The notes below the pieces were generated by a model, which did no database searches, was not told the origin of the DNA, and was given only the letters and a program-made list of their open reading frames with translations. A stretch of DNA of 64,000 nt from a virus (Duplodnaviria; Caudoviricetes): the IMG/VR virus record IMGVR_UViG_3300037249_000541, positions 42,382 through 106,381 of that record. The stretch is one strand, 5' to 3'. Below are positions 40,032 through 49,332 of this stretch, piece by piece. The translations under genes were made by a program, and so were the position numbers. Numbering within the stretch: position 1 is the first letter of the stretch; the number at the start of each line of letters is the position of its first letter.

Positions 40032-40035
40032 TTTG

Positions 40036-40094
40036 TAGTGTAGCCAGGACTCGAACCTGGACGTGTTCCAACACACGTTCCTATATCTACACTA
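40036..40094 (-). ncRNA. D-armless tRNA-like element
   Basis: TAGTGTAG/CTACACTA acceptor, ACGTGT/ACACGT hairpin, CCAGG-TTCGAGT-CCTGG. Confidence 0.7.
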
Positions 40095-40735
40095 ACTCTT
40101 ACTACGTTGTCCTGGGCTAAAGCCCAACTCGGAGACATTCAGAGTGCCTTTTACGACGGCCCACGCCTTCGTGATAGAAGGATTGACGTGAGATTACGGA
40201 GAATCTCCTTGTCGTGGCTGTTGGAGGAACTGCCCCTCCTTGGTCTTGTTATCCCACAGCCTGTTGAATATGTTTCAATCCAACCCAGTCACCTCATTAG
40301 ATTTGATAATTCACCGTATAAAGTCATATGCTATTGATTACTCGCGGATTGACGTTTCAAACACATAAGTGAATACTCCGTACTGCCCTTTCTTCATCAC
40401 ATAAGTATTCTTGATATACAGCTCCTTATCGGCGTACAGGAGATGACTCATTTTCGCCCTTAGTCTTTCCCAAGTGTCAGTAGTCTTCCCCACTTCCAGA
40501 TTTACCATAAAAATCCCGCAAGATTTAAACAGTTGCAAGTTTACTCTTGGGTCTTACGTTGACCACACCGACCTGCTTCTCGGCAGGCTCATATCCATTT
40601 CGTCAGGCCACGGCACCAACTTGGCGTTTAACTATACTCCTTGCGACAATCTAACTGCGTCCAGTTAGCATTGGAAGTGTGTCGAAGTTCGCAACCTGGG
40701 TGTTCCCGTGCTGAGATAGCTGGAGAAAGAAATAT
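40095..40735 (-). ncRNA. candidate large structured RNA (about 640 nt)
   Basis: No credible ORF; GC-richer; many hairpins (CTAACTG/CAGTTAG, CCTGC/GCAGG, GAGATT/AATCTC, CCTTC/GAAGG, TGGGCT/AGCCCA). Confidence 0.55.
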
Positions 40736-40737
40736 CT

Positions 40738-41142
40738 CTACAAAAGAAAATCTTTATATACTTGCTTTAAATACCTTTCTTTTATTGCTTCTGCTTTTAC
40801 GTAAGCTGTTTCGTATTTTGCATAACCATTAGCATTGGTCTTGTAAAATCTTGCTTGACCATATGTTCGTTCGTCATACCATCTGGTTCCATAACTTTTA
40901 TATCCATATTCTCTGTCTGGTGAGAATATGATATTCCATAGAAGTATGAGAAATGTTCCATCGTCATTAATAATGATATCACTAAGCAATCCCATCCTTT
41001 TTACAGAGTCATCTTCTTCACCGAATCTTACAATAACAGGTTTCCCAAAAAACGGTTTAAGCTTATCTCTTGGTATTTCGATTGGTTTTTTCTTGCTCAT
41101 CTTGTTGAGTTTTTTGGATTGTTTGAATTGCTCTTGCTCCAC
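40738..41142 (-). CDS. hypothetical protein (likely start about 41100)
   Basis: ORF. Confidence 0.55.
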   Translation of the reverse strand: MEQEQFKQSKKLNKMSKKKPIEIPRDKLKPFFGKPVIVRFGEEDDSVKRMGLLSDIIINDDGTFLILLWNIIFSPDREYGYKSYGTRWYDERTYGQARFYKTNANGYAKYETAYVKAEAIKERYLKQVYKDFLL

Positions 41143-41371: not shown

Positions 41372-41442
41372 AGACACTTGATTTTTTGGCAAAAAGCATA
41401 ATGGTACCGATAATCAGTCGGGAATCTTTTTTGTAAGTGTCT
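41372..41442 (-). ncRNA. motif RNA B with Ile(GAT)-like anticodon stem-loop
   Basis: AGACACTTACAA...CCGA-CTGATTA-TCGG...AAGTGTCT. Confidence 0.75.
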
Positions 41443-41446
41443 TTGT

Positions 41447-41580
41447 TGGAGTATTTGAAAAAAATTCATTGAGTCCAGACTAACCTGTTGTCGAGCGGCA
41501 CACTACCACGTGATGATTTACCGTAGCTGTTTCAGACATGGTGCGTCGCCTGGGATTTGAACCCAGATTTTTCAAACTCA
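41447..41580 (-). ncRNA. circularly permuted tRNA-like RNA
   Basis: Order is T-arm, GCGACGC-ACCA, spacer, GTGCCGC, D-arm (GAC-AACAGGTTA-GTC), closed by TTTGAAAAA/TTTTTCAAA. Confidence 0.65.
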
Positions 41581-41583
41581 TTG

Positions 41584-41705
41584 TGCAGCGAGCAGGAGTT
41601 GAACCTGCGTTTTCGGATTGGAATATTCTAACGATGTTTTTGTGAGTAAGTAATCTTACTTAAATGTTATAGTGCCGACGTTCTAACCAACTAAACTATC
41701 GCTGT
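41584..41705 (-). ncRNA. motif RNA C: tRNA (Gly TCC-like) with the shared helix inserted in the anticodon arm
   Basis: Intact acceptor, D and T arms; insert contains AAGTAA-GA-TTACTT-ACTCACAAAA. Confidence 0.75.
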
Positions 41706-41711
41706 GTGTAT

Positions 41712-41768
41712 TGTCACTTATTGGCAAAATTAGATAACAATTTGTTTTTTACTAATTTGTAAGTGACA
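41712..41768 (-). ncRNA. motif RNA D (minimal)
   Basis: TGTCACTTACAA...TAAGTGACA. Confidence 0.75.
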
Positions 41769-41837
41769 TCGAAAACATTAATAACCTAAACGTAATAAAA
41801 ACATAAATCCATGTTACAGCATCAAGATTACAAATTG

Positions 41838-41910
41838 TGTGTCAAGAGGGAATCGAACCCTCGACCCACGCATTAAAAGTGCGTTGCTCTACCAACTGAG
41901 CTATTGACAC
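41838..41910 (-). tRNA. tRNA-Lys(TTT)
   Basis: ACGCA-CTTTTAA-TGCGT. Confidence 0.93.
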
Positions 41911-41913
41911 ATA

Positions 41914-42047
41914 AAATGCAAATACTCCATATAGGTTAACTGTTCCATTCGACACGCCTCTTCCGAACATTCCAGGTCTGAGTCATACGGTTTAACAGCC
42001 ATGAGATAGAGATAGGTGTGCGTCATCTCAGGCGTGTATTTGCATTT
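41914..42047 (-). ncRNA. unknown structured RNA
   Basis: 12-bp terminal stem AAATGCAAATAC/GTATTTGCATTT; inner ACACGCCT/AGGCGTGT and TGAGAT/ATCTCA. Confidence 0.55.
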
Positions 42048-42059
42048 GTTTTTTTTATT

Positions 42060-42122
42060 TGATACTTATGTCAACGGGTTAGATTAAAAGTCTAATGTTT
42101 TTTATTTGTTTTGTAAGTATCA
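42060..42122 (-). ncRNA. motif RNA E with Lys(TTT) anticodon stem-loop
   Basis: TGATACTTACAA...TTAGA-CTTTTAA-TCTAA...AAGTATCA. Confidence 0.8.
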
Positions 42123-42142
42123 TCGTTCCATGAATGACGCGA

Positions 42143-42505
42143 TTAAACAACCGCGTTTTCTTTCTCTTTGTCAAAACATTTGTTCTGCAATATTTGACGG
42201 AAATATTCTTCTGCATCACCAAAAGATTCAAAATCTCTTTCGATGCAAGATTTATATTCTTTGCCTACCTTTAATAGTTTAAAGGTTTGGCTTAGTCCAT
42301 AAATAACACAGTTAGTTACCGTAAAATCAAATATTACTTTACCATTATCATCTTTTCGTGAAATAATAGAAATCTTTGCCATCATTAATGGTATGTAATG
42401 GCTATGTTCGTATTTCCTGAAATTCCACGAATTGATTCGTGTTAATGCAGAAATAAATGCTAACTTTAAAAATTGATAACTATTTGTCATTTCCCTTATA
42501 ATCAT
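42143..42505 (-). CDS. hypothetical protein
   Basis: ORF between RNA genes. Confidence 0.5.
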   Translation of the reverse strand: MIIREMTNSYQFLKLAFISALTRINSWNFRKYEHSHYIPLMMAKISIISRKDDNGKVIFDFTVTNCVIYGLSQTFKLLKVGKEYKSCIERDFESFGDAEEYFRQILQNKCFDKEKENAVV

Positions 42506-42509
42506 TAAA

Positions 42510-42565
42510 TGTCACTTGGGGTATTTTGATTAGCAGTCAAATCCATTTTGAATTTGTAAGTGACA
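42510..42565 (-). ncRNA. motif RNA F with Ser(GCT) anticodon stem-loop
   Basis: TGTCACTTACAA...TTTGA-CTGCTAA-TCAAA...AAGTGACA. Confidence 0.8.
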
Positions 42566-42573
42566 GTGTTTTG

Positions 42574-42686
42574 CGGACAGGATAGGACTCGAACCTATGA
42601 CATCGGCATTAACAGTGCAATTCGTTAGTTTTGTAAGTAACTAATGCTACTTGTGATACGCGCTCTACCAACTGAGCTACCTGTCC
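42574..42686 (-). ncRNA. motif RNA G: tRNA-Asn(GTT) interrupted by a 40-nt motif insert (42619-42658)
   Basis: Deleting the insert restores CGGCA-CTGTTAA-TGCCG; insert contains AAGTAGC-ATTA-GTTACTT-ACAAAA. Confidence 0.85.
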
Positions 42687-43401: not shown

Positions 43402-43524
43402 TGGCGGAGGCTGGACTCGAACCAGCAACTTTCAAATTATCAGTTTGACTATCTTAACCTTAAAAGTATTGTTTTTGTAAGTAACATATGTTACTCAACT
43501 TTGTTTTTGTTGATATACTCCGCC
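43402..43524 (-). ncRNA. motif RNA I: tRNA-Ile(GAT) with about 50-nt motif insert in the D-loop
   Basis: GGCGGAG/CTCCGCC, TCAAA-CTGATAA-TTTGA; D-loop insert GAGTAAC-ATAT-GTTACTT-ACAAAA. Confidence 0.85.
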
Positions 43525-43531
43525 ATATAAT

Positions 43532-44004: not shown

Positions 44005-44114
44005 TGGGCGTGGAAGGAATCGAACCTTCTGATTTAATTGATGTGCCATTAATCATATTTTTTATTTGTGTGTATTGTAAGTGACAGAGTATCACTTGTT
44101 CTCTGTTCACGCCC
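44005..44114 (-). ncRNA. motif RNA L: tRNA shell with the motif hairpin replacing the D-arm
   Basis: GGGCGTG/CACGCCC, AAGTGATA-CTC-TGTCACTT-ACAA, GAAGG-TTCGATT-CCTTC. Confidence 0.8.
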
Positions 44115-44124
44115 ATATAAAAAT

Positions 44125-44224
44125 TGATACTTGTTTTATTGCTATTGGAATCGAACCAATGATACAAGGATTTTCAGTCCTTTGCTCTACCTCTGAGCTA
44201 AGCTTTTTGGTCTTGTAAGTATCA
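44125..44224 (-). ncRNA. motif RNA M: helix enclosing a tRNA-Phe(GAA) body lacking a full acceptor stem
   Basis: TGATACTTACAA...AAGGA-CTGAAAA-TCCTT...AAGTATCA. Confidence 0.85.
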
Positions 44225-44228
44225 TTTG

Positions 44229-44344
44229 TCGAGGAGGTCAGACTCGAACTGACGACCCTTGGAACCCCACGAATGTGATGTTCTTGTGAGTAACTCAAGT
44301 TACTTAATTCTAAACCAATGCTCTACCAGCTGAGCTACTCCTCG
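44229..44344 (-). ncRNA. motif RNA N: tRNA-Pro with about 40-nt motif insert in the anticodon arm
   Basis: CGAGGAG/CTCCTCG; insert AAGTAAC-TTGA-GTTACTC-ACAAG; TGGGG at the anticodon position. Confidence 0.8.
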
Positions 44345-44840: not shown

Positions 44841-46700
44841 TTAGATTACGTTGTTCCTGACAACATCGTAACGGTCGCTACGGAAGAACGACAGAAGAGC
44901 CGCATAAGAGTCGAACTGTTCCATATCCCTGAAATTGGTGAGGAACATCTCTATCTGTGAAGGGTTTGCTGGAATGTACATCAGATTTGGCACGGTTGTA
45001 ATCTGTGCATCTACCGATACCTGATTATTGATGTCCATAGCAATGATGAATGGTTTGAAGCCAAGAACTTCCTCTGCTTTTGAAAGCAAGTTCACAACTG
45101 AATCCAATCTATTCCTTGAAGAATTCCATTCGCCGTCAGAGATTATTGTCCAGATTGGATATCTCGCAAATTCATCTTTTACAGCATCTCCTTTGTCAAG
45201 AAGGTCTGAGATATGTTCAACGATTGCTTCGATATTAGTCCAACCCCAGTCAGCTTTCGCTCTCAAGCAGCAATACAGGTTTTTGTAGTTTTCCAAAAAC
45301 GATTTTGTTGTGTCAACAAGCGGAAGGTCAACTTTCTTGATGTTTGGCATCATCAATTGATTTCTAACTTTCTTCATGCCATCAACTTGCCTGTCTATTG
45401 TTGTTACAGGAATGACGTTGTTTCCGAACATGTACACTACGTTCCTTGCCAATGGGTCAGGGTTCTTGTAGAGGCATACAGAAGCAATGAAAGATGCGAA
45501 GTTGAATGCCATGCAACCATAATTGCTCATTGAGCCTGAACAATCTATGAATACCAAAGAGTTGTAGGGCAGATTCACTTTCTCCTGTACGAATGCTTCA
45601 ATTTTGAGTTCGTCCACATTAGCCGAACAAATCTGTTCGTACAACTCCTTGAAGTTTGTTGCGCCAGTTGTTACCTTAGCTGCTTTCTTCGCTTCCCTTA
45701 AAGCTGCTTGCAACTCAGGTGTTATAGGCTCACCATTCTGTACCTGCTCTTTGATGTCGCGTACTTTCTGTTGTGCTTCCTCTTTAAACTTCTCCCATTC
45801 CTCGAACCAAGTTTTCAGATTAGGCCATTTGAGGTCATCACTATCCTTCTTCTTGGAATAGAAGATTTTGTTCTTTACGCGGAATCTTGCTGATGCAGGC
45901 AAGTTGTTGAGCCATTCCTTGAATTGCATCTGGTCAAACTCTGCAATCTTTCCTGTAGAGAAGAGTACGCTTTCGAGTTCGCCGTTGTACTCACTGCGCC
46001 ATTTACGATAACCTACGAAGTTGACTTTTTCTTCGTTGTTTCCAACATAGCGATACTCCCAACCCATTCTCTGTGAAAGCATCTTGAGAAATTCTCCTTT
46101 TGCTTTCATATTGGCTTTTGTCTCTGGCAACATACGAGTGTGTCCTTGACGAACACCAAACCTTGGAGGTGTCAAGAATTTCGCAACGCAAGTCTTGGCG
46201 AATGGATTGTTGCCACGAACAATTTTCTCCACGAATTCGCAGAGAGATTCTCTGTACCAACCCTCGTTGAACAAACACCTATTGCTTACGATTGTCGGGT
46301 TTTTTGCTTTGACTTTTGCCGTCTGTACGCGAGACACAAACAACGAGTCCATGCACTGATACTCGCTGATTATGCCTTTGCCGAGGAATACTTTGAACTG
46401 TTCTCTTGCGTTTTTCATCATCCAGTCAAGTACAACGTTGAATCCTTTGCGGTTGCTGTTGCCACCATTGTCACGCTGTTTACGACCGAATATGTGATGC
46501 TGACGGCCTGTGATGTCGCCAATACCAATTAGAATTGAATAGAATAACTGCAATTTCTCCTTGCTTGTTGCTTCAGAGTATGCAGCTTCTATCATGTCAA
46601 CGGTGATTGTATTGCCCATATTTTGGAATAACATCATCATGCCGTCGCATCCCTGAAAGGGATTTTCCGATGTTTTGTTGAATGTTACTATTGATGCCAT
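44841..46700 (-). CDS. TROVE/DUF2828-like helical domain plus vWA domain protein (Ro60-like)
   Basis: MIDAS DCSGSM, T in WTN, ISDGEW; N-terminal GDI..R...GG...R..F and AKF..P motifs; start at ATG 46700 after an A-rich leader. Confidence 0.75.
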   Translation of the reverse strand: MASIVTFNKTSENPFQGCDGMMMLFQNMGNTITVDMIEAAYSEATSKEKLQLFYSILIGIGDITGRQHHIFGRKQRDNGGNSNRKGFNVVLDWMMKNAREQFKVFLGKGIISEYQCMDSLFVSRVQTAKVKAKNPTIVSNRCLFNEGWYRESLCEFVEKIVRGNNPFAKTCVAKFLTPPRFGVRQGHTRMLPETKANMKAKGEFLKMLSQRMGWEYRYVGNNEEKVNFVGYRKWRSEYNGELESVLFSTGKIAEFDQMQFKEWLNNLPASARFRVKNKIFYSKKKDSDDLKWPNLKTWFEEWEKFKEEAQQKVRDIKEQVQNGEPITPELQAALREAKKAAKVTTGATNFKELYEQICSANVDELKIEAFVQEKVNLPYNSLVFIDCSGSMSNYGCMAFNFASFIASVCLYKNPDPLARNVVYMFGNNVIPVTTIDRQVDGMKKVRNQLMMPNIKKVDLPLVDTTKSFLENYKNLYCCLRAKADWGWTNIEAIVEHISDLLDKGDAVKDEFARYPIWTIISDGEWNSSRNRLDSVVNLLSKAEEVLGFKPFIIAMDINNQVSVDAQITTVPNLMYIPANPSQIEMFLTNFRDMEQFDSYAALLSFFRSDRYDVVRNNVI

Positions 46701-46739
46701 TTTGATTATTTTTAATATGTTTTCGTGTTGTAAGTAACA
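46683..46739 (-). promoter_or_regulatory. motif helix enclosing the vWA gene start codon (putative autoregulatory operator)
   Basis: TGTTACTTACAA...ATGGCATCAAT-AGTAACA. Confidence 0.7.
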
Positions 46740-47303: not shown

Positions 47304-48086
47304 TTACTTAGCCGCTTTCAGTTTCCTAAAATCGACTGTTTTGATTTTTGTTATCACTCTGTTGCCCATTCTGTCGTAGATTGGTACTTCTGGGCGCAAT
47401 ACCAATCCTTCTGCATCAAGGTTCTTATCTTCGGCTATTGCTGACTTGAAGCCAATAGATACAACATCTATTGCTTCTTCTATTGTCATTTTGCCATAGA
47501 ATGGAACTGTTGGTGCATTGAGTTTCTCGGCAATATCTTTCGTCGAATCCCACTCCAAGTACAAGTTATTGACCTTAGTGTCGAATACAATGAATGATAC
47601 GCCGTTACGAATGTAACCACCTCCGCTTTGTATTCCTGCTCCATATCCTTCTCCATAGATTGTCCATTTTGTAGGAATATCATCGATTGTTTCCCACTTA
47701 TGGTCTTTCCATTCCTCGTAAGGAATATAAGACTTCAACCCCCAAGCTGCTAATACTTTTTCAGTGGGATAGTTGTCTTCAAGGTGCTTCCTCAATGTTG
47801 GTGGAATCTGTGCGTTATCTGTTTTACCCTTGTAGTCAACTTTGAAATTAACTCCAAGAATCTGACGTATACCTTCTTTGTCTGCTTCTGAATAGACAAT
47901 CTCGATGGTTACTTCTAATCGAATATTTGTGCCATCTATCTTCTCAAAGGCAAGCCAGATGCAATTTTTAAGGTACTCGACAATTTTATCGGAGTAGTCT
48001 CCAACAATTATCAAGTCCTTTGAATCACGCTTAAAGATTGTGTTAATCTTTTGATACGTGTTCTCTGAACGTTTTTGTTTGCTCAT
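47304..48086 (-). CDS. ATP-dependent RNA ligase (Rnl2-like adenylation domain)
   Basis: EKIDGTN, YGE, F..FD, EGLV, K.K nucleotidyltransferase motifs; no OB domain. Confidence 0.88.
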   Translation of the reverse strand: MSKQKRSENTYQKINTIFKRDSKDLIIVGDYSDKIVEYLKNCIWLAFEKIDGTNIRLEVTIEIVYSEADKEGIRQILGVNFKVDYKGKTDNAQIPPTLRKHLEDNYPTEKVLAAWGLKSYIPYEEWKDHKWETIDDIPTKWTIYGEGYGAGIQSGGGYIRNGVSFIVFDTKVNNLYLEWDSTKDIAEKLNAPTVPFYGKMTIEEAIDVVSIGFKSAIAEDKNLDAEGLVLRPEVPIYDRMGNRVITKIKTVDFRKLKAAK

Positions 48087-48894: not shown

Positions 48895-49332
48895 CTATTG
48901 CTTATACCTTAATCTCAACGACAATAATGAAAATAACGTTTTCTTTTTTATTATCTTATATTCATTGCCATTAAGCGTTATTGTTCCTTTTGCCACATCA
49001 ATGATTCCGTTGTTTTGTTCAATAAAATCAATACCTAAGATTCCATTTAATCCAAAACTTTCATCAACTTCATCAATATCATTTGTTACGGCTGTTTTTA
49101 ATTTAAATTCGCAATCACTTACTTTAATTGGTAATTCATAAAAACCAGCCATTTGAACTCCATTAAGATTGCTTATTTGCATATTTTTCAAATGCTTAAA
49201 CTGTATCTTTTTCTGCATCAAAGACCTCATCATTTTGTAGTCTTTGTCATATATAATACTACTATCAGCACCTGTATCTATGCACATTGTTAGCTTAGTG
49301 GAATCTACTTCAATTTCTATCGTAATATTCAT
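48895..49332 (-). CDS. retropepsin-like aspartyl protease
   Basis: IDTGA, GILG.DF. Confidence 0.85.
   Translation of the reverse strand: MNITIEIEVDSTKLTMCIDTGADSSIIYDKDYKMMRSLMQKKIQFKHLKNMQISNLNGVQMAGFYELPIKVSDCEFKLKTAVTNDIDEVDESFGLNGILGIDFIEQNNGIIDVAKGTITLNGNEYKIIKKKTLFSLLSLRLRYKQ

What the first reader, a model, noticed from the sequence alone, without database searches (positions are those of the whole stretch)
41372..42565. Minimal RNAs presenting isolated anticodon stem-loops (Lys-UUU, Ser-GCU, Ile-GAU): possible nuclease decoys
Seen: elements E, F and B (56-71 nt) contain the motif helix plus an anticodon arm with a 7-nt loop: TTAGA-CTTTTAA-TCTAA, TTTGA-CTGCTAA-TCAAA and CCGA-CTGATTA-TCGG. 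They have no D, T or acceptor arms, so they cannot be translational tRNAs. Known: anticodon nucleases such as PrrC and PARIS AriB target tRNA-Lys(UUU). Inference: these are decoys or baits for host tRNases or modification enzymes. H (GAA-like loop) and O may be further cases. B, D, E and O also share TTG(A/C)CA just before the 3' strand.
Basis: partly seen in the sequence, partly recalled or inferred. Interest (0 to 1): 0.85.

Follow-up and report, generated by a model that had tools for sequence, protein, structure and literature searches.

The report
Phage small RNAs displaying lysine-tRNA anticodon arm
A cattle-gut phage encodes about sixty-base RNAs that join a conserved "handle", probably the docking site of the phage's Ro60-like ring protein, to a small hairpin. 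One of them (E) is a conserved copy of the lysine-tRNA anticodon arm, which could be a bait for proteins that read or cut that arm, though this is untested.

Summary

**E (42060-42122)** is solid. Its 5-bp stem plus loop CUUUUAA (the tRNA-Lys UUU loop) recurs on the same handle in at least 12 other phage lineages, each with a different, compensating stem. I counted 9 distinct copies against 0.017 expected by chance.

**F and B are weak.**
- F's arm is out-competed by an 8-bp hairpin. Its loop changes (GCU, GUU, then a 5-nt loop) among close relatives.
- B has only 4 pairs and a U at position 37.

**Context.** The handle is an 8-bp helix ending CUU followed by unpaired ACAA.
- It is strand-specific and covaries.
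- It is confined to an array beside a 619-aa protein whose predicted fold matches Ro60 best, and next to an RNA ligase.
- It also encloses that protein's own start codon in 44 of 64 relatives.

**Best reading.** These are minimal Y-RNA-like partner RNAs, and E is a tRNA-Lys anticodon-arm mimic. The decoy idea is plausible but untested.

**Prior sightings.** This scan has already noted the same design (bare anticodon arms on a handle beside a Ro60-like gene) in at least 15 other phage genomes. I found no paper describing it.

The parts
42060..42122 (-). Element E: handle helix TGATACTT/AAGTATCA, unpaired ACAA, and a tRNA-Lys(UUU)-like anticodon arm TTAGA-CTTTTAA-TCTAA at 42079-42095
   Evidence: The family recurs with covarying stems. 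The arm and the 3' part are identical in 4 close genomes while the 5' linker varies.
42510..42565 (-). Element F: handle helix TGTCACTT/AAGTGACA plus ACAA. The claimed arm TTTGA-CTGCTAA-TCAAA lies at 42525-42541 and competes with an 8-bp hairpin
41372..41442 (-). Element B: handle helix AGACACTT/AAGTGTCT plus ACAA, a second helix CAAAAA(A)G/CTTTTTG, and a small hairpin at 41407-41421 (claimed CCGA-CTGATTA-TCGG)
41712..41768 (-). Element D: handle plus a covarying 7-8-bp second helix with an 18-nt loop. It has no anticodon-like loop
44712..44777 (-). Element O: the first handle RNA after the Ro60-like gene. Its second hairpin TCAAA-TTAGGGA-TTTGA corresponds to a CTTTTAA hairpin in relatives (L077, L130)
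44841..46700 (-). 619-aa protein with a Ro60-like predicted fold (helical ring part plus a C-terminal vWA domain with DxSGS MIDAS motif). It is the presumed handle-binding partner
   Evidence: No TROVE, DUF2828 or DUF7788 HMM match.
46683..46739 (-). Handle copy on the 5' end of the Ro60-like gene's mRNA. The 7-bp helix TGTTACT/AGTAACA encloses the ATG
   Evidence: The same arrangement occurs in 44 of 64 distinct relatives.
47304..48086 (-). RNA ligase (PF09414, Rnl2-type nucleotidyltransferase), two genes upstream of the Ro60-like gene. The synteny is kept in relatives
41837..41910 (-). Genuine tRNA-Lys(UUU) gene just downstream of E. The gap is about 150 nt here and in L048, and 5 nt in L049 and L050

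Best explanation
E, F and B are the smallest members of an array of about 16 small structured RNAs that this phage encodes downstream of a Ro60-like ring protein and an RNA ligase. Each RNA has a constant handle: its 5' and 3' ends pair into an 8-bp helix (consensus WGWYACUU) followed by unpaired ACAA. I infer that this handle is the docking site of the Ro60-like protein, as the terminal helix of a Y RNA is for Ro60. The rest of each RNA is a variable cargo made of tRNA parts.

In E the cargo is a conserved copy of the tRNA-Lys(UUU) anticodon arm. The particle would hold out this arm to a protein that recognises it and so tether, titrate or sense that protein. The most likely target is a host enzyme that cuts or modifies tRNA-Lys at the anticodon. 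Lysyl-tRNA synthetase is an alternative. The neighbouring ligase is available for repair. In F and B the cargo is another small hairpin, and its likeness to an anticodon arm is probably not the selected feature.

Shown here: the handle family, its strand specificity and covariation, its linkage to the protein gene, the Ro60-like fold, and the conservation of the Lys arm. Inferred: transcription and processing into about 60-nt RNAs, protein binding, and any contact with tRNA-acting enzymes.
For: - Handle as an RNA structure: on the protein-coding strand of 123 related loci, 307 of 992 CT[TC]ACAA cores have a closing helix, against 7 of 275 on the other strand. Pairs at positions -5, -6 and -8 covary. 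41 of 244 distinct helices contain G-U pairs, which indicates an RNA-level structure.
- Confinement: in the whole 106-kb genome the motif clusters only in this array.
- Partner protein: Foldseek's ten best PDB matches are all Ro60 or Rsr, including Thermus phage phiLo Ro60, aligned over the full length (E 2e-5 to 8e-4). The independent VIA-align search ranks D. radiodurans Rsr (Z 12.3, 333 aligned), Xenopus Ro (Z 11.2, 385 aligned) and phiLo Ro60 (Z 10.8) first. The MIDAS motif DxSGS is invariant.
- Own mRNA: the handle helix encloses this gene's start codon in 44 of 64 distinct relatives, with covarying outer pairs. That is the layout of translational autorepression by an RNA-binding protein.
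- Synteny: RNA ligase, then a 163-aa ORF, then the Ro60-like gene, then the RNA array, kept in relatives. This parallels rsr-yrlBA-rtcBA (PMC4201824, PMC7790460).
- E arm: see the observation check. In the four close genomes the arm and the 3' part are identical while the 5' linker changes.
- Precedent: phage Ro60 binds phage-encoded Y-like RNAs and recruits a host enzyme (PMC12135203). Bacterial Y RNAs mimic tRNA (PMC4201824).
Against: - No expression data for the small RNAs. Two rumen metatranscriptome runs hold contigs of the Ro60-like gene and of a nearby non-coding stretch, but nothing over E, F or B, and contigs cannot show small RNAs.
- The protein matches no TROVE, DUF2828 or DUF7788 profile. 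The structural matches have low TM (0.2-0.4) and high rmsd on a medium-confidence model (pLDDT 74).
- The handle (perfect helix plus ACAA) does not resemble the bulged helix or CGAA motif of known Ro60 sites. Rfam YrlA scores only 20 bits against a threshold of 69.
- Only about one in six related loci carries an E-type RNA.
- In this clade E sits directly upstream of the real tRNA-Lys gene, which also fits a leader or processing role.
- A substrate-like decoy would have to compete with abundant host tRNA-Lys.
Confidence: 0.55

Rival explanations
1. Stand-alone nuclease decoys. E, F and B act on their own as competitive substrates or inhibitors of host anticodon nucleases such as PrrC, RloC or AriB. 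The handle only stabilises the RNA ends.
For: The Lys(UUU) loop is the conserved one, and tRNA-Lys(UUU) is the known target of PrrC and AriB (PMC1484252, PMC12409363). PrrC reads cues in the anticodon stem-loop (PMC1484252). Rarer variants of the E type carry UGU (L025) and UUC (L084), and F's orthologue in L049 carries GUU. AriB also cuts Thr(UGU) and Asn(GUU) (PMC12409363). An RNA ligase is adjacent.
Against: This does not explain why the handle sequence is conserved, why it sits on the Ro60-like gene's start codon, or why it also carries whole and permuted tRNA bodies. The AriB site U39-C40-A41 is not conserved in E-type stems. No polynucleotide kinase/phosphatase was found in the genome. 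No nuclease data exist. F and B are poor mimics.
Confidence: 0.15
2. Processing or leader elements of a polycistronic tRNA transcript. The handle marks cleavage or ligation sites, or protects the ends, for maturing the neighbouring ordinary, interrupted and permuted tRNAs. The small elements are spacers with no function of their own.
For: Elements abut tRNAs: E ends 5 nt before tRNA-Lys in L049 and L050, and F starts 9 nt after an interrupted tRNA. The same motif lies in inserts of 4-5 tRNA genes and around permuted tRNAs, some of which encode CCA. Cargo anticodons in relatives span many amino acids, like a tRNA set. An RNA ligase is linked.
Against: A spacer would not keep a CUUUUAA loop on a covarying 5-bp stem across distant phages. 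In most other clades E-type RNAs are not next to tRNA-Lys. No endonuclease was identified. No spliced or joined forms were seen, although the data could not have shown them.
Confidence: 0.15
3. Decayed remnants of larger permuted tRNA-like RNAs that lost their T, D and acceptor parts and now have no function.
For: In permuted relatives the anticodon arm lies just before the 3' handle strand, so deletions could leave only the arm. One orthologue (L012) has lost its arm entirely. F's loop decays among close relatives.
Against: E-type RNAs persist in at least 13 lineages with compensating stem changes and an invariant loop. E's arm is unchanged where its linker varies.
Confidence: 0.1
4. DNA-level signals (promoter, terminator or inverted-repeat protein sites) rather than RNAs.
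For: B, D, E and O contain TTGACA or TTGCCA, which resemble a -35 box. The elements lie between genes.
Against: Promoter-like and terminator-like sites occur at chance level in the region. No U-tract follows the helices. Helices contain G-U pairs and are strongly strand-specific. The spacing between the arms varies from 40 to 115 nt.
Confidence: 0.03

Closest known systems
Y RNAs with Ro60/Rsr, especially bacterial and phage YrlA/YrlB (Rfam RF02553; Chen et al. 2014, PMC4201824) and Thermus phage phiLo Ro60 with Yrl1/Yrl2 (PMC12135203)
   Same: Small RNAs encoded beside a Ro60-shaped protein gene. The 5' and 3' ends pair into a terminal helix with a conserved element. A variable second module mimics tRNA. 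An RNA ligase is linked, as in rsr-yrlBA-rtcBA. A phage version is known to bind a host enzyme.
   Different: The protein is not detectable with the TROVE profile. The handle (perfect helix plus ACAA) differs from the bulged helix or CGAA site. There is an array of about 16 RNAs instead of 1-4. YrlA mimics the acceptor, T and D part and lacks an anticodon arm, whereas E displays only the anticodon arm. Rfam YrlA scores below threshold.
Class I non-coding RNAs of dictyostelid amoebae (Kjellin et al. 2021, PMC7919456)
   Same: About 60 nt. A short covarying stem joins the 5' and 3' ends. A conserved unpaired motif lies directly after the 5' strand, and the rest is variable. The paper fixes T, C, C, A, A at motif positions 3, 6, 9, 10 and 11, which fits the motif CCUUACAGCAA as I recall it. 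The phage handle reads CUUACAA.
   Different: The phage motif lacks the GC. No Rfam hit. The amoebal RNAs have no known Ro60-like partner or tRNA-like cargo. The full 11-nt sequence is from my memory, not from a tool.
Phage-encoded tRNAs that escape anticodon nucleases (T5 tRNA-Lys/Thr/Asn against PARIS AriB, PMC12409363) and T4 repair of PrrC-cut tRNA-Lys (PMC1484252)
   Same: A phage-encoded RNA with the tRNA-Lys(UUU) anticodon loop, an RNA ligase nearby, and a plausible link to host tRNA-targeting defence.
   Different: E has no acceptor or T arm, so it cannot be charged or decode. No kinase/phosphatase healing enzyme was found. The AriB recognition positions in the stem are not conserved.
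Anticodon-arm mimics in mRNAs or viral RNAs that bind synthetases (E. coli thrS operator; the HIV-1 tRNA-like element that binds LysRS). Both are recalled from memory.
   Same: An isolated hairpin that copies a tRNA anticodon arm and is read by a protein that normally reads the tRNA.
   Different: Those are parts of long RNAs with a regulatory or primer-placement role. Here the mimic is a free-standing small RNA on a protein-binding handle. Not tested here.

Membership tests
tRNA | Cloverleaf with acceptor, D and T arms detectable by tRNA models | tested here: not met
   ARAGORN and Rfam RF00005 at E<=10 give no hit over E, F or B. The sequences have no T or D motifs.
tRNA anticodon arm (as a mimic) | 5-bp stem, 7-nt loop, pyrimidine 32, U33, purine 37, kept in relatives and in the predicted fold | tested here: met
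   This applies to E only. It is in the MFE and centroid folds. CUUUUAA sits on covarying 5-bp stems in at least 13 lineages.
tRNA anticodon arm (as a mimic) | Same features, for F | tested here: inconclusive
   The letters fit, but a competing 8-bp hairpin is preferred. The loop becomes 5 nt in L050 and the anticodon changes in L049. There is no stem covariation.
tRNA anticodon arm (as a mimic) | Same features, for B | tested here: not met
   4-bp stem and U at position 37. The folds choose another register.
Y RNA / YrlA (RF02553) | Match to the Rfam covariance model | tested here: not met
   Best hits in the region are 20 bits against a gathering score of 69, and none lies on E, F or B.
Y RNA / YrlA (RF02553) | Encoded next to a Ro60 orthologue | tested here: met
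   The array starts 64 nt after a gene whose product has Ro60 as its best structural match by two methods. The linkage holds in 122 related loci.
Y RNA / YrlA (RF02553) | Terminal helix of the 5' and 3' ends carrying the Ro60 binding site | tested here: inconclusive
   A terminal helix with a conserved sequence is present, but it is unlike known Ro60 sites. Binding cannot be tested here. The handle on the protein's own start codon is indirect support.
Y RNA / YrlA (RF02553) | tRNA-like domain with T arm, D arm and acceptor stem | tested here: not met
   Absent from E, F and B. Present in other members of the array and in relatives.
Ro60 / TROVE protein | Match to Pfam TROVE (PF05731) | tested here: not met
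   No hit for the protein, for 24 aligned relatives, for 10 distant family members, or in a six-frame genome search.
Ro60 / TROVE protein | Helical-repeat ring plus C-terminal vWA domain with a MIDAS motif | tested here: met
   AlphaFold2 model at pLDDT 74. Foldseek top 10 are all Ro60 over the full length. VIA-align top 3 are Ro60, Z 10.8-12.3. DxSGS is invariant. The ring closure itself was not inspected.
Dictyostelid Class I RNA | About 60 nt, a short terminal stem, and a conserved 11-nt motif next to the 5' strand | tested here: inconclusive
   Size, stem and motif position agree, and CUUACA..AA is shared. There is no Rfam match. The motif sequence is partly from memory.

The most novel reading that the evidence does not exclude
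The Ro60-like particle uses E-type RNAs as bait for host anticodon nucleases specific for tRNA-Lys (PrrC, RloC or AriB-like). The displayed arm captures or senses the nuclease, and the linked RNA ligase reseals cut tRNAs or baits. This would be an RNA-based counter-defence module. The swapping of anticodons on sister RNAs between related phages would then record an arms race with nucleases of different specificity.
Probability: 0.25. Interest if true: 0.85.

Novelty: new variant of a known kind. Interest (0 to 1): 0.62.

Why it matters
Ro60/Y-RNA particles are known from animals, bacteria and a few phages, and the purpose of the tRNA mimicry in bacterial Y RNAs is still unclear. Here the mimic is reduced to one functional piece of a tRNA, the lysine anticodon arm, and evolution keeps that piece authentic. 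That narrows the search for the particle's target to proteins that read this arm. It also gives a simple, testable RNA of about 60 nt. If the target is a tRNA-cutting defence enzyme, this would be a new RNA-based way for phages to counter such defences. If the target is a synthetase or a modification enzyme, it would show how phages tap the host's tRNA machinery. The handle's likeness to the unexplained Class I RNAs of social amoebae may also point to a protein partner for those RNAs.

Tried and rejected
- **RNA evidence.** One search for sequencing runs and one read-laying run. Only assembled contigs were available. The two rumen metatranscriptome runs cover parts of the Ro60-like gene and 40246-40713, but nothing over E, F or B. 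tRNA-region hits came from other organisms. This says nothing about expression, ends or splicing.
- **Sequence-level naming of the 619-aa protein.** Pfam, PHROGs, PDB sequences, a PDB profile search, six-frame searches for TROVE, DUF2828 and DUF7788, and Pfam on distant family members all gave nothing beyond a weak vWA signal. tblastn against 50,697 GenBank phage records found no match.
- **Unbiased census of E-type RNAs in IMG/VR.** The gapped pattern gave 94 hits, of which 80 were returned as loci. None of the 80 had both a closing helix and a paired stem, so they are chance matches. This does not test the reverse association properly.
- **Healing enzymes.** A search for polynucleotide kinase/phosphatase families found nothing convincing.
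- **Promoter or terminator reading.** At chance level.
- **Literature.** Searches for DUF2828 and for a paper on anticodon-arm decoys found nothing relevant.
- **Complex prediction.** Not used, because it scores protein-protein pairs only.
Full report
**Setting.** The window is part of a complete 106,381-bp phage genome with direct terminal repeats. Near-identical DNA is held by cattle-gut metagenome runs. All features discussed lie on the minus strand. Two tRNA clusters are present. The finding lies in the second cluster, between 39.9 and 46.8 kb.

**The observation.**
- Reading the minus strand and running a mechanical scan shows ten elements between 40026 and 44777 in which a 5' strand ending CTT is followed by ACAA and closed by a perfect 8-bp Watson-Crick partner 40-115 nt downstream.
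- Six more copies have the partner upstream, forming a hairpin. Five of these lie in inserts of tRNA or tRNA-like genes, and one lies on the 5' end of the 619-aa gene.
- B (41372-41442), E (42060-42122) and F (42510-42565) are the claimed minimal RNAs. Their letters and sizes (71, 63 and 56 nt) are as reported.
- None is seen by ARAGORN or by the Rfam tRNA model, even at E<=10.

**Is the handle real?**
- I collected 122 related loci through the neighbouring 619-aa protein.
- On the protein's strand, 307 of 992 core motifs have a closing helix. On the other strand, 7 of 275 do.
- Across 244 distinct elements, ACAA and the inner pairs are invariant, a G-C pair at -7 is nearly so, and positions -5, -6 and -8 covary. 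41 helices contain G-U pairs, so the structure acts at the RNA level.
- In the whole genome the motif clusters only here.
- Promoter-like and terminator-like sites are at chance level.

**The partner protein.**
- The 619-aa product (44841-46700) has no Pfam, PHROG or PDB sequence match.
- It belongs to a family of 184 representatives in a library of 1.84 billion proteins, none of which is named.
- It has an invariant DxSGS MIDAS motif.
- The ESM Atlas links its model to DUF2828/DUF7788/VWA proteins (TM 0.62-0.77).
- An AlphaFold2 model (pLDDT 74) has Ro60 as all ten best Foldseek matches in the PDB, aligned over the full length. These include Xenopus, human and D. radiodurans Ro60 and the Thermus phage phiLo Ro60.
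- The independent VIA-align search of 48,161 chains puts Rsr (Z 12.3, 333 residues aligned), Xenopus Ro (Z 11.2, 385 aligned) and phiLo Ro60 (Z 10.8, 319 aligned) first, ahead of chains that match the vWA domain only.
- TM-scores are low and the TROVE profile does not match. I therefore call the protein Ro60-like in fold, not a TROVE family member.
- An Rnl2-type RNA ligase (PF09414) lies two genes upstream, and this order is kept in relatives. It parallels the rsr-yrlBA-rtcBA operon (PMC4201824, PMC7790460).

**Link between protein and handle.** In 44 of 64 distinct relatives a handle helix encloses the start codon of this gene. The 5' strand lies 23-36 nt upstream, the 3' strand lies at +9, +25 or +52 in the coding region, and the outer pairs covary. 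The window has the same arrangement at 46683-46739. This is the classical layout of translational autorepression. It is my main indirect argument that the protein binds the handle.

**The three claimed anticodon arms.**

*E.*
- The arm is in the MFE and centroid folds.
- In the four close genomes (proteins 86-88% identical) the arm and the 3' part are identical while the 5' linker varies.
- Among 131 distinct small handle elements without a T arm, the commonest 5-bp/7-nt hairpin loop is CTTTTAA. It has 9 distinct copies on 6 different stems, against 0.017 expected in dinucleotide shuffles.
- On an alignment of nine such RNAs, all five arm pairs show changes on both sides. The sequences were chosen for being paired, so that count alone is not independent evidence.
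- A covariance model then found further members that my helix scan had missed (L039, L109, L088, L026, L112, L093, L041, L077), each with a new stem. It also found rare variants with UUC (L084) and UGU (L025).
- In 1.52 Mb, 5-bp CTTTTAA hairpins number 49 on the coding strand: 24 next to a T arm, 17 handle-only, and 8 others that are mostly permuted or atypical tRNAs. Only 7 lie on the other strand.
- E is therefore a conserved mimic of the tRNA-Lys(UUU) anticodon arm.

*F.* RNAfold and RNAalifold both prefer an 8-bp hairpin that uses the same TTTGA, and the substitutions fit that hairpin. The supposed anticodon is GCT, GCT, GTT and a 2-nt deletion in the four close genomes.

*B.* It has four pairs and a U at position 37, and the folds choose another register.

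Without CTTTTAA, anticodon-like loops in small elements are not clearly above chance (7 against 3.4 +/- 1.9).

**What the other cargoes show.**
- In relatives most larger handle RNAs are circularly permuted tRNAs. The order is handle, T arm, 3' acceptor strand, loop, 5' acceptor strand, D arm, anticodon arm, handle. Others are tRNA bodies enclosed by the handle.
- In one orthologous family the anticodon triplet has a pairwise diversity of 0.63, against 0.03 for the rest of the body outside the acceptor end. C32, U33, A37, A38 and the stem are invariant.
- The interrupted tRNA next to F reads GTT, GTT, TTT and TCT in the four close genomes.

**Mechanism.** I take these RNAs to be Y-RNA-like partners of the Ro60-like protein, with the handle as the docking site and the cargo as an adaptor.
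- Published phage and bacterial Ro60 particles use the RNA to recruit another protein, PNPase (PMC12135203, PMC4201824).
- By analogy, E would recruit, titrate or sense a protein that reads the tRNA-Lys anticodon arm.
- tRNA-Lys(UUU) is the target of PrrC and AriB (PMC1484252, PMC12409363), and a ligase is adjacent, so a role against anticodon nucleases is attractive.
- It is unproven. The stem positions that AriB reads are not conserved, no healing enzyme was found, and synthetases or modification enzymes are equally possible targets.
- In this clade E lies 5 to about 150 nt upstream of the genuine tRNA-Lys gene. That keeps a processing or leader role alive, although other clades lack this adjacency.

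**Known relatives and novelty.**
- The nearest described systems are YrlA/YrlB with Rsr and phiLo Ro60 with Yrl1/2. The differences are listed under Closest known systems.
- The handle also resembles the stem-plus-motif design of dictyostelid Class I RNAs.
- I found no paper on handle RNAs that display bare anticodon arms.
- Earlier notes of this scan describe the same design, often with Lys(UUU), in at least 15 other phage genomes, with a related handle (stem plus ACAGCAA). Those are unchecked AI notes and do not count as evidence here, but they show that this is a recurrent pattern.

**Verdict.** The decoy reading is partly supported as a hypothesis. The best classification is a new variant of the Ro60/Y-RNA theme.

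Noticed in passing
window 42574-42686 (-); L048, L049, L050; family L011/L014/L018/L019/L037/L058/L059: Orthologous handle-bearing tRNA-like RNAs keep the anticodon stem and C32, U33, A37, A38 but swap the anticodon triplet between related phages. The interrupted tRNA reads GTT, GTT, TTT, TCT. One permuted family reads GTC, GTT, TCA, GAT, TTT. Diversity is 0.63 at the anticodon against 0.03 in the rest of the body, and the acceptor end is also variable.
   Followed up: partly
window 46683-46739 (-) and about 40 nt upstream of the homologous gene in relatives: A handle helix encloses the start codon of the Ro60-like gene in 44 of 64 distinct relatives. This suggests that the protein represses its own translation.
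   Followed up: partly
window 41584-41705, 42574-42686, about 43410-43530, about 44025-44130, 44229-44344 (-): tRNA or tRNA-like genes interrupted at different positions by a hairpin form of the handle (AGTAAC-loop-GTTACT, then YACAARAAC). Rfam still scores three of them as tRNA, with 48-58-nt inserts in the anticodon region.
   Followed up: no
window 40040-40740 (-): A non-coding stretch of about 700 nt with higher G+C and no Rfam family, ending in an acceptor/T-arm mini-helix near 40035-40100. Contigs from two rumen metatranscriptome runs cover 40246-40713 at 99-100% identity.
   Followed up: partly
window 41920-42050 (-): An insert of about 130 nt between E and tRNA-Lys, closed by a 12-bp long-range helix (AAATGCAAATAC/GTATTTGCATTT). 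It is present here and in L048 but absent from L049 and L050, where E abuts the tRNA.
   Followed up: no
related loci, e.g. L017:8073-8183, L030:17540-17649, L018:12476-12584: Most larger handle RNAs of relatives are circularly permuted tRNAs opened at the variable-loop position. Some encode a discriminator base plus CCA after the 3' acceptor strand, which keeps open the possibility that some mature into working tRNAs.
   Followed up: partly
window 41449-41579 (-): A T arm plus 3' acceptor strand followed by further tRNA-like pieces, without the ACAA handle. I did not examine it.
   Followed up: no
window 48895-49332 (-): A 145-aa ORF with weak retroviral-type aspartyl protease matches just below Pfam thresholds, kept near the ligase in relatives.
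   Followed up: no
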